In this document: positions 31,998-34,645 of the stretch, in pieces | Numbering within the stretch: position 1 is the first letter of the stretch | Layout: the number at the start of each line of letters is the position of its first letter | From: Eledone cirrhosa | Taxonomy: Eukaryota | Reading direction: 5' to 3' | Assembly: GCA_964016885.1 (NCBI GenBank) | Contig: OZ024743.1 | Span: forward strand, 216,318,001 to 216,382,000 | Length of the DNA stretch: 64,000 nt | The notes under the pieces: generated by a model | Database searches by the model: none | What the model was told of the DNA's origin: nothing | Seen by the model: only the letters and a program-made list of their open reading frames with translations | Made by a program: the position numbers and the translations under genes

Positions 31998-34645
31998 AAC
32001 GAAGGAAATGTGGTAAGGAACCAGGTGGACCATAACGCACCAAAGTACTCAATACTTAGGGTAGTAGAGTGGGTAATAGGAACAAGTAAGACCCCGACGG
32101 CTGAGCTCAAGCCGTTTCGACGTCTAATTCTGGACTGAATGAAAATTTATTCTGGTATTTAAATAGCCGAGCTTATCAAGGGCTAATTCCATATATGGTC
32201 AAAGAGATAATCACCAGGATTGGTCACATCACAAGTTAGTAGTAAATCTGTGATGGCAAATTTGTGGGGGAAGGAGTAGCTAAACCTGCCTGTAGGAGAA
32301 AAGGGGAGAGGGGGTGGAGTAGACCCATTCATGCGTTGGTAGTGCCGGCTACAGCTTGGCGTGAGGTCAAAGAGGATACTGGGGAGGGGGAGGGGGAGGA
32401 AGTCGAAACGGTAAGTAGAACAATGAGGGGTAAAACTATAAAAAGTACTGAGAGAGAAAAAAAAAATAAGCAAAGTCTGGTTACTAAGACTTAAGTCTCT
32501 CGCTAATGACCTGTACTACCCATACAGGAAACCCAATGACAACCTGCACTACATCCACCGCCGATCTAACCATCCTAGGAACATCACCAACAACCTGGTC
32601 AAAAACATCTCCCTCCGCATATCCTGTTTGTCAGCTAATGATAAGATATTCGATGAACATGCGCCTTACTACAACCAGGCCCTCAAGCGGATTGGTTTCC
32701 GGGAGGAAATATCCTACTGTCCAGCTCCCATTAACGGAACCAGCAGGCGACACCGCCGCTCACGCAATGTAACATGGTTCGATCCTCCCCACAACGCCGA
32801 GGTGACAACTCCCATCGGGAAAATTTTCTTTAGGCTCATTGAAAAACACTTCCCACCACAACACCGCTACCACAACATAATTAACAAAAATACCATCAAA
32901 CTCTCTTACAGCACTACACCTAACTTCGCACAAAACATCCTCTCCTCCAACAACAAAAAACTCAACCCCGATGGAAGAAACAACCTAAATAGCAGTGGAG
33001 AGCCGACCAGGAGGTGCAACTGTCCTGATAGATCAAGTTGCCCCCTCGACAACAGATGCAGAGACCGTAATGTGATCTACCAGTGCAAGGCGAGCACGGA
33101 CACCTCCAACAAAGCTTATATAGGATTAACCGAGATGTGACTTCAAGACCCGGCTATACCAACACAGACATACCTTCCGAAACCCGGCCCGGCGTCACGC
33201 CACTACACTTCCGGGCCACATATGGGACCTCAAGGACAACAACATCAACTATGATCTCACTTGGAAATTACTGTCCAGAGCCAACTCTTACACGGGAGGA
33301 CGCCGTCCGTGCAATTTATGCTCGGAGGGAACTTTACAAATGCTGTTTTCGACGGACCAACTCCTAAACAAGAAAGATGAACTGGTTACTGCATGTAAAC
33401 ACCGATTACGTAGGACTTACCTCGCCCTCAAACCCCATAATGACCCGGGAGGGGGGTAGACTAGGGCTATAACACCCCACTTGCCTATTTTGTAATGGGT
33501 AACCCCTGCTTGCCAATGGAGACGTAATATCTTCTTTTACATTCTTTTATCGCTTCCTCTATATTTCCTTCTTCCCCCCATCCCTCCCTAGTCTTTCTAC
33601 CCCAGTTCCTTTTCTTTGTCGTCGTCTTTTTCTCGCCCATCCGAGGTAGCCCCTCGGTCCCTTGAAGCTTCAGCACCCCCACCACCCTCCCCTATTCTAT
33701 GATAGATTTGGCTGACTCCACTTTTTATAGAAGAGGTGTTAGACTTCGGATACTTGCCTCCTTCTCCAACCGCTGTCCTTTTTTCCGTGCCTTCTATATT
33801 TCTTTGGCATCTTTGCTTTAATTTCTCGTTTATCCAGTATTTCTTTCTTCTTTTTCCCTTTTTTTTTTGGGGGGGGAGGGTTCTGTATTAATTTTCCGTT
33901 CTTTACTTTTACTTCGTACGATCTTTCATGTAGCTTGAATAAGACTTTTTGTTTCGTGGCGGTACCCTTATAGTTAGCACTAGTATTTTTTTGCGGGACC
34001 CTGAATTATATTCTCGTACTAGTTTACTTTCTTTCACTGGGTGGTTGCTGGCCCTGTGATTGGGGTAGAAACCTTTATTATTTCGTGGCAGTCTCTTTAG
34101 TATTTTGCCCCCCCCCCCCCCCTTTGTTGACCCGTCACCGTACGATACACGCACTTATACCTCGTATAAGGGTCCCTTTATTTCCGTCCCACCTAATTTA
34201 TTTTTATTATTATTATTTTTTTTTTATGTATTTCTTTAGCCTAGTATTAGCGAGATACTTAAGTCTTAGTAACCAGACTTTGCTTATTTTTTTTCTTTCT
34301 CACTATTTTTTTATAGTTTTACCCTTCATTGTTCTACTTACCGTTTCGACTTCCTCCCCCTCCCCCTCCCCAGTATCCTCTTTGAGCTCACGCCCAGCTG
34401 TAGCCGGCACTACCAACGAATGAATGGGTCTACTCCACTCCGTCTCCCTTTTTCTCCTACCGGCAGGTTTAGCTACCCCTTCCCCCACCAATTTGCCATC
34501 ACAGATTTACTACTAACTTGTGATGTGACCAATCCTGGTGATTATCTCTTTGACCATATATGGAATTAGCCCTTGATAAGCTCGGCTATTTAAATACCAG
34601 AATAAATTTTCATTCAGTCCAGAATTAGCCGTCGAAACGGCTTGG
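31998..34645. mobile_element. PLE family F: inverted pLTR (31998-32503), plus-strand thumb/GIY-YIG (32506-33460), 3' UTR/pLTR
   Basis: WFDPPH, CNCPDRSSCPLDNRC, VIYQC, YIGLT; 32110-32503 is the reverse complement of ~34245-34640. Confidence 0.9.
32091..32185 (-). ncRNA. Hammerhead with U3:A8 variant core
   Basis: CCC-UUGAUAA-GCUCGGCUA...UAGACGUC-GAAA-CGGCU UGAGCUC AGCCG-UC^GGG. Confidence 0.7.

What the first reader, a model, noticed from the sequence alone, without database searches (positions are those of the whole stretch)
32091..32185. Hammerhead family with covariant U3:A8 core (UUGAUAA instead of CUGAUGA)
Seen: three copies (32173-32179 minus, 34573-34579, 63157-63163) have UUGAUAA in the core position, and a fourth (54797) has CUGAGAA. 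The core is followed by a long stem II (CGGCUA/UAGCCG base, ~45-nt loop), GAAA, a full 6-bp stem III (ACGGCU/AGCCGU), GUC and a CCC/GGG stem I. The 34573 copy is truncated within stem III. Established: positions 3 and 8 form a tertiary Watson-Crick pair, so U3:A8 is compensatory. Inference: this is a functional variant ribozyme that CUGANGA motif searches miss. Unlike most PLE HHRs, its stable stem III would allow monomeric cleavage.
Basis: partly seen in the sequence, partly recalled or inferred. Interest (0 to 1): 0.78.

Follow-up and report, generated by a model that had tools for sequence, protein, structure and literature searches.

The report
Transposon ribozyme leaves cut-site footprints
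An abundant Penelope-like retrotransposon in this animal genome carries a hammerhead-type RNA fold with the already-known U3:A8 core, and many of its tiny inverted insertions end exactly at the predicted cut site, which likely records self-cleavage inside the living cell.

Summary
The motif is real: a type I hammerhead fold in the pseudo-LTR of a young, high-copy Penelope-like element with Hydra-clade motifs. U3:A8 is not new; it is published for natural hammerheads (2011) and for Schistosoma Penelope-like elements (2014). It is also not simple covariation here. Of 6,382 genome copies with core and 3' anchor, 4,877 are U3:A8, 1,462 C3·A8, 34 U3·G8 and 9 C3:G8. Position 8 is fixed, and mismatched C·A and wobble U·G cores were carried by source lineages that amplified. 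The likely order is C:G, U·G, U:A, C·A, U:A (from copy age; root unresolved). Stem II covaries across subfamilies; stem III is a conserved 5 bp; an alternative hairpin competes with the active fold. The unexpected result: in 20 of 50 very short inverted insertions both arms end exactly at the predicted scissile bond, mostly with untemplated filler, more often in U3:A8 than C3·A8 subfamilies (16/28 vs 3/17). This likely records cleavage in vivo, at about 1% of 3' arms. Best reading: a weak, monomeric ribozyme that the element tolerates rather than needs. Cleavage itself is untested.

The parts
32079..32190 (-). Type I hammerhead fold, UUGAUAA subfamily; this copy has private mismatches in stems I and II
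32173..32179 (-). Core positions 3-9, UUGAUAA (U3:A8)
32119..32172 (-). Stem II with long loop (54 nt)
32097..32118 (-). GAAA and stem III with 7-nt loop containing the GAGCUC palindrome
32095..32096 (-). Predicted scissile bond (C17 / G1.1)
   Evidence: hammerhead numbering; junction peak at this bond in other copies
31974..32470 (-). Inverted pseudo-LTR arm with the long (about 80 nt) tail, ending in (TA)n
32498..34644 (+). 5'-truncated element body: end of RT, GIY-YIG-type endonuclease region (open frame 32442-33140), 3' UTR, pseudo-LTR
34562..34644 (+). Second arm's hammerhead copy (UUGAUAA at 34573), cut off inside stem III
54786..54902 (+). Hammerhead copy of the CUGAGAA (C3·A8) lineage, short tail, ending in (TA)n
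63138..63248 (+). Hammerhead copy of a separate, older U3:A8 branch (UUGAUAA at 63157), solo 5'-truncated insertion in (TA)n
50507..53253 (-). Broken element of the same family: ORF fragments 50507-52972 joined by a deletion to a pseudo-LTR piece that lacks the hammerhead
27943..28155 (.). Mini inverted insertion: two 3' halves of the hammerhead back to back, one long tail, one short tail, in (TA)n
29194..29410 (.). Mini inverted insertion, same type
5778..5965 (.). Mini inverted insertion, same type

Best explanation
This is a type I hammerhead-fold motif in the pseudo-LTR of a high-copy Penelope-like retrotransposon, and it likely acts as a weak monomeric ribozyme that cuts only a small share of element transcripts after GUC. 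Shown: the motif lies about 190 nt upstream of a 717-aa RT plus endonuclease ORF and again in the downstream direct repeat; insertions end at two sites about 20 and 100 nt downstream of the cut site; a class of tiny inverted insertions has both arms ending exactly at the cut site. Inferred: reverse transcription starts at those two downstream sites, so a cut RNA gives only a 20-100 nt run-off cDNA with untemplated additions, while full-length copies need RNA that is uncut or re-ligated. Strong cleavage would therefore cost the element, which would explain why source lineages amplified with U·G, U:A and C·A cores and with a competing hairpin.
For: Architecture. Core census. Invariant U4 G5 A6 A9, G10.1-C11.1, GAAA, A15.1-U16.1 in 39 of 39 representatives spanning about 65-100% identity. 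Stem II compensatory changes at 3 pairs in 9-10 sequences each; 85.8% of cells paired, 0 of 500 shuffles as high, slid controls 27-48%. Youngest subfamily folds as a hammerhead at minimum energy. Cut-site footprint: 20 of 50 loci with both arms at G1.1; 36 of 50 arm ends at G1.1 among 25 junctions with filler; 48 of 50 show one long and one short tail. U3:A8-tail loci 16 of 28 vs C3·A8-tail loci 3 of 17, Fisher p=0.013; 10 of 24 vs 2 of 26 in an overlapping second sample, p=0.007. No unmutated single-C filler occurs among the 20, so CpG decay does not explain the single T/A fillers. Hammerhead mutants did not impair insertion of another such element in vitro (PMC11167929).
Against: No cleavage assay and no RNA data (no RNA holder listed). 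Folding z-scores are unremarkable (-0.02 to -1.68) and several subfamilies prefer the alternative hairpin (probability 0.58-0.83 in two C3·A8 representatives, 0.65 in UUGAUAA). Stem III shows conservation but no covariation. In one type III hammerhead only the G:C swap rescued the 3-8 pair (PMC9901934). The 39 rows are related, so shuffle tests overstate support; two of five measures were not above shuffles. Four of the 20 both-arm junctions have fillers that could be CpG-decayed upstream bases. The two junction samples share 11 loci and are the first 50 listed on one contig. Tail type is only a proxy for core type.
Confidence: 0.62

Rival explanations
1. The ribozyme is catalytically dead or nearly so; the fold is kept for another role (protein binding, reverse-transcription priming, promoter overlap), and the junction peak comes from the RT stalling at the three-way junction or G-run.
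For: Amplified lineages with C3·A8 (1,462 copies) and U3·G8; competing hairpin; most short arms read through the site and end 25-46 nt upstream (60 of 63); catalysis dispensable for insertion in vitro in another element.
Against: The peak is one base wide, excludes the unpaired C17, carries untemplated filler, and is rarer where the 3-8 pair is mismatched although stems I and III are the same. Catalytic-core bases are invariant in 39 of 39.
Confidence: 0.2
2. One reading: an efficient monomeric ribozyme in which U3:A8 fully replaces C3:G8, processing and circularising the RNA; read-through copies come from re-ligated circles.
For: U3:A8 natural covariation and in vitro activity are reported; stable stem III; exact head-to-tail arrays of about 3,542 bp exist; youngest subfamily has the best fold.
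Against: Position 3 changes without position 8; a C·A lineage persisted over a long ladder of source elements; cut-site ends are about 1% of 3' arms by extrapolation.
Confidence: 0.12
3. CUGAGAA works by a register shift: G7 pairs with C3 in place of G8, and A9 becomes an extra base, so the C·A state is not a true mismatch.
For: 1,390 of 1,462 C3·A8 copies have G7, the other 72 are scattered over backgrounds, while U3 lineages amplified with all four bases at position 7.
Against: G7 may be shared by descent along one ladder; cut-site junctions are rarer in C3·A8-tail loci; no report of a tolerated one-base shorter core was found.
Confidence: 0.12

Closest known systems
U3-A8 minimal hammerheads of Schistosoma mansoni Cercyon Penelope-like elements (PMC4209133; parts 1-2 of 4 read)
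   Same: U3-A8 core, pseudo-LTR location, over a thousand genomic copies (about 1,300 there), missed by CUGANGA descriptors
   Different: Those lack a stable helix III and are thought to act as dimers; this one has a 5-bp stem III, a 54-56 nt stem II region, a distal stem I helix, and amplified C·A and U·G lineages
Natural U3/A8 hammerhead variants (PMC3088659; part 3 of 8 and search passages read)
   Same: Covariation at the 3-8 tertiary pair seen in nature and reported active in vitro
   Different: No lineage history or retrotransposon junction evidence in the passages read
Hydra-clade Penelope-like elements and their hammerheads (PMC8557442; section 11, passages, supplement parts 1-2 and a supplement search)
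   Same: RW[K/R], DKT, CxCX5C linker, C-terminal endonuclease, (TA)n targets, inverted 5'-truncated copies, tail
   Different: All 26 Hydra hammerhead rows in File S2 have CUGANGA, short stem II and 3-4 bp stem III with 1-3 nt loops
Fungal and protist Penelope-like hammerheads with large helix III (PMC4209133)
   Same: Stable helix III allowing a monomer fold
   Different: Those are in endonuclease-less telomeric elements; one was shown to cleave fast; here the host is an animal and the core is U3:A8
PAc Poseidon element of Anolis (PMC11167929; parts 1-2 of 4 read)
   Same: Two internal reverse-transcription start sites giving the tail; both DNA strands extended; hammerhead upstream of the start sites
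   Different: There no reads began or ended at the cleavage site and cleavage was dispensable in vitro; here genomic junctions peak at the site

Membership tests
Type I hammerhead ribozyme | Conserved core UGA, A9, GAAA, A15.1-U16.1, NUH triplet | tested here: met
   U4 G5 A6 A9, G10.1-C11.1, GAAA, U16.1 invariant in 39 of 39; C17 in most, T in a few copies
Type I hammerhead ribozyme | Three helices closing on the core, open stem I | tested here: met
   85.8% of 845 cells paired, compensatory changes in stem II; slid controls 27-48%
Type I hammerhead ribozyme | Watson-Crick pair between positions 3 and 8 | tested here: inconclusive
   Met in 4,886 of 6,382 copies (U:A 4,877, C:G 9); not met in 1,462 C·A; wobble in 34
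Type I hammerhead ribozyme | Self-cleavage after the NUH triplet | not testable with these tools
   Indirect only: junction peak at G1.1
Type I hammerhead ribozyme | Stem I / stem II tertiary contact of extended hammerheads | not tested
   A bulge in stem I and a long loop II are present; no contact was modelled
Rfam hammerhead families | Match to a curated model | tested here: not met
   No match up to E=10 on the window copy or on an intact copy
Penelope-like element | Single RT plus GIY-YIG-type ORF between direct pseudo-LTRs, tandem and inverted copies, optional tail | tested here: met
   717-aa ORF with YRDDG and C-terminal YIG motif between direct repeats; Pfam scan itself gave no family
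Hydra clade | RWK, DKT, CxCX5C linker, CxxC and CxH near the C-terminus, no CCHH | tested here: met
   RWR, DKT, CNCPDRSIC, CNLC, CKH read directly in the L049 ORF against the list
Hydra clade | (TA)n target preference | tested here: met
   Insertions end in (TA)n throughout
Hydra clade | Canonical CUGANGA hammerhead | tested here: not met
   9 of 6,382 copies canonical; canonical only in distant relatives L201, L207, L208, L210
Hydra clade | Phylogenetic placement with named Hydra proteins | not tested
   Reference proteins were seen in a supplement but not used in a tree

The most novel reading that the evidence does not exclude
The genome holds a fossil record of hammerhead cleavage in vivo: hundreds of insertions copied from RNA cut at the ribozyme site, with a frequency that tracks the 3-8 pairing state of each subfamily. 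The element is selected for a throttled ribozyme, because cleavage severs the RNA body from the reverse-transcription start sites, and its source lineage walked the 3-8 pair through U·G, U:A and C·A while still amplifying.
Probability: 0.45. Interest if true: 0.7.

Novelty: new variant of a known kind. Interest (0 to 1): 0.52.

Why it matters
What hammerheads do in endonuclease-bearing Penelope-like elements is called unclear in PMC8557442, and PMC11167929 found no RNA ends at the cleavage site. Junctions that stop on the scissile bond would be direct genomic evidence of cleavage in vivo and a read-out that can be run on any such family. The subfamily series also offers natural variants of a catalytic tertiary pair (C:G, U·G, U:A, C·A) in one scaffold. 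The U3:A8 core alone is not news.

Tried and rejected
Coding constraint on A8: rejected; the ORF start lies about 190 nt downstream of the cut site, and the apparent fusion at window 52972 is a deletion. Rooting by outgroup: unresolved; a DNA outgroup fell in an open polytomy near the young clade, a protein outgroup at 34-43% identity did likewise, but forcing the DNA outgroup onto the old U·G group scored 1.15 log units higher, p-AU 0.56. The order of states therefore rests on copy age. Cap-derived G at a transcription start in loop II: 5 of 8 vs 17 of 49, p=0.24, not shown. Stem III variants with a changed fourth pair: 3 sporadic copies only. Expression: no RNA holder listed; Logan contigs added nothing on RNA ends; a second read-laying did not run, so the junction peak has no independent sample. 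Four papers on 3-8 mutants and dimeric element hammerheads were not held, so their rates are not used. Earlier findings of this scan: none returned. Rfam scan of the window gave only microsatellite-driven miRNA hits and two unrelated hammerheads among the 150 of 270 rows shown.

Full report
Observation. The window lies in a 3.0-Gb animal genome (G000). The 32 kb and 34 kb copies are the inverted and direct arms of one insertion. The 32 kb copy has private mismatches in stems I and II and does not fold as a hammerhead. Intact copies have a 5-bp stem I, an asymmetric bulge, a 5-bp distal helix, a 54-56 nt stem II region, and a stem III with a 7-nt loop. Rfam gives no match on the window copy or on an intact copy.

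Host element. Intact copies carry a 717-aa ORF between direct repeats that each hold the motif; the cut site lies about 190 nt upstream of the start codon. Head-to-tail arrays of about 3,542 bp occur. The protein has RWR, DKT, YRDDG, a CxCX5C linker and a C-terminal YIG region, and insertions end in (TA)n. These match the Hydra clade as defined in PMC8557442 (section 11); I did not place it on a tree with named Hydra proteins. Relatives in public databases are 38-54% identical. An exact 21-mer of the 3' half occurs 55,036 times, the reversed control 0 times.

Core census. With the 3' anchor fixed and positions 3 and 8 varied: U3:A8 4,877, C3·A8 1,462, U3·G8 34, C3:G8 9. So UUGANAA is the family state, not decay, but A8 is fixed (6,339 of 6,382) while position 3 toggles. 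Of the C3·A8 copies 1,390 have G7; U3 lineages amplified with G, U, A or C at position 7. These counts need exact anchors and so under-count old copies. A looser anchor found 72 G8 copies, including an old UUGA(U/G)GA subfamily, a UUGAAGA subfamily, and distant relatives with canonical CUGANGA (L201, L207, L208).

History. Trees with positions 3, 7 and 8 masked (75 rows; 83 rows; drawn from 96 and 118 of 165 copies that kept enough upstream sequence, then thinned) show a ladder: U·G subfamilies, U:A branches, a long CUGAGAA ladder, then UUGAGAA and UUGAUAA. End branches are longest at the U·G end (0.06-0.15) and shortest in the UUGAGAA clade with intact ORFs (under 0.01); the oldest U·G copies are only 78% alike. 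The likely order is C:G, U·G, U:A, C·A, U:A. Outgroup rooting is unresolved: two free trees put outgroups near the young clade, a constrained tree rooting at the U·G end was as good (p-AU 0.56). U3:A8 is thus compensatory in deep history, likely via a wobble, but mismatched states also amplified.

Structure. In 39 representatives U4, G5, A6, A9, G10.1-C11.1, GAAA and A15.1-U16.1 never vary. Cells paired 85.8% (0 of 500 shuffles as high; slid controls 27-48%); three stem II pairs change on both sides in 9-10 sequences; two of five measures did not exceed shuffles, and the rows are kin. Stem III is a conserved 5 bp without covariation; the sixth pair holds in 12 of 39. The youngest subfamily folds as a hammerhead at minimum energy (0.5 kcal/mol ensemble penalty); other intact A8 representatives pay 1.6-3.5, and old decayed copies up to 16. 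A hairpin pairing the 3' strand of stem II with the 5' strand of stem III buries GAAA and dominates in several. Folding z-scores are unremarkable.

Cut-site footprint. Most 3'-half matches are tiny inverted insertions with one long and one short tail. PMC11167929 showed that such tails mark two internal reverse-transcription start sites; here they lie about 20 and 100 nt downstream of the cut site. A pattern that accepts junctions from 9 nt downstream to several nt upstream of the site found 785 loci. In the first 50 listed, 48 have the long/short tail pair and 20 have both arms ending exactly at G1.1; among 25 junctions with filler, 36 of 50 arm ends are at G1.1 (p about 4e-12 even against a 25% null). 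Fillers are mostly T or A. Four could be CpG-decayed upstream bases; none is the unmutated single C that this explanation predicts. Loci with U3:A8-type tails show the class in 16 of 28, C3·A8-type tails in 3 of 17 (p=0.013), other tails 1 of 5. A wider pattern (1,182 loci; first 50, 11 shared) gave 10 of 24 vs 2 of 26 (p=0.007); tail type tracks core type in full copies. By extrapolation about 310 loci are of this class, about 1% of 3' arms. Most short arms instead read through the site and end 25-46 nt upstream (60 of 63), which may mark a transcript start inside loop II; a cap signature was not shown.

Mechanism. Inferred: the full motif exists in the downstream pseudo-LTR and in read-through RNA. 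When it cuts, the 3' product begins at G1.1; the RT starts in the tail, runs off the cut end, adds untemplated bases, and two such cDNAs join as a mini inverted insertion. Full-length copies need uncut or re-ligated RNA. A slow ribozyme is therefore tolerated or favoured, which fits the weak cores and the competing hairpin. Rivals are a dead fold with RT stalling (0.2), an efficient ribozyme with circular templates (0.12), and a register shift in CUGAGAA (0.12).

Known work. U3/A8 covariation in nature is reported in PMC3088659 (part 3 read) and in about 1,300 Schistosoma element hammerheads in PMC4209133 (parts 1-2). All 26 Hydra rows in the PMC8557442 supplement are canonical and compact. 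PMC9901934 (passages) found only the G:C swap rescued this pair in one hammerhead. PMC6765202 (passages) summarises the dimer model. Passages of PMC2920678, PMC13481778 and a 2026 preprint added nothing. Searches did not turn up a report of insertion junctions at an element hammerhead's cut site or of amplified C3·A8 lineages; the library lacks most subscription papers, several key papers were not held, and supplements of PMC4209133 were not read. That untemplated additions mark RT run-off and that CpG sites decay is my own background knowledge.

Verdict. Observation confirmed, interpretation partly supported. The headline variant is known; the architecture, lineage history and cut-site footprint are a new variant of a known kind. 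Interest 0.52; 0.7 if the footprint and throttling model hold (probability 0.45).

Noticed in passing
window 16199-16243 (-) and 19321-19365 (+): Canonical compact CUGAUGA hammerheads (Rfam Hammerhead_1, 31.6-31.7 bits, gathering 34) in the two arms of another inverted repeat, 16153-17382 / 18154-19411.
   Followed up: no
window 7499-7540 (+): Third compact CUGAUGA hammerhead candidate with 7-bp stem I and palindromic CTAG in stem III.
   Followed up: no
window 10437-12077 (-), 12273-12899 (-), 29597-30835 (-), 55723-56097 (-): ORF fragments of other Penelope-like families with DKT and similar RT motifs; the window is dense in such elements.
   Followed up: no
short arms in L019-L217 and window 27943-28155: 60 of 63 short arms end 25-46 nt upstream of the cut site, peaking at -40 to -42 at an initiator-like TYAGTC (motif recalled); may be a transcript start inside loop II.
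   Followed up: partly
L224, L227, L231, L283-L310: Many inversion junctions use the stem III inverted repeat and the GAGCTC palindrome in loop III as microhomology.
   Followed up: partly
L047-L048: Five identical hammerhead copies in a head-to-tail array with a period of about 3,542 bp and intact ORFs.
   Followed up: partly
L129, L141, L067 vs L047, L097, L003: Distance from ORF end to hammerhead is about 610-700 nt in UUGAAGA/UUGAAAA branches and mostly about 1,100-1,250 nt in CUGAGAA and younger ones.
   Followed up: no
G000:C440:38327-118041: Four near-identical copies of a distant relative (UUGACGA core) spaced about 26.5 kb apart, inside a larger tandem repeat.
   Followed up: partly
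window 34645-34733 and 29444-29520: The sequence that replaces the end of the 34 kb copy matches another short repeat, possibly the tail of a different element.
   Followed up: no
window 56957-57676 (-): 239-aa open frame resembling a degraded LINE endonuclease region (recalled resemblance, untested).
   Followed up: no
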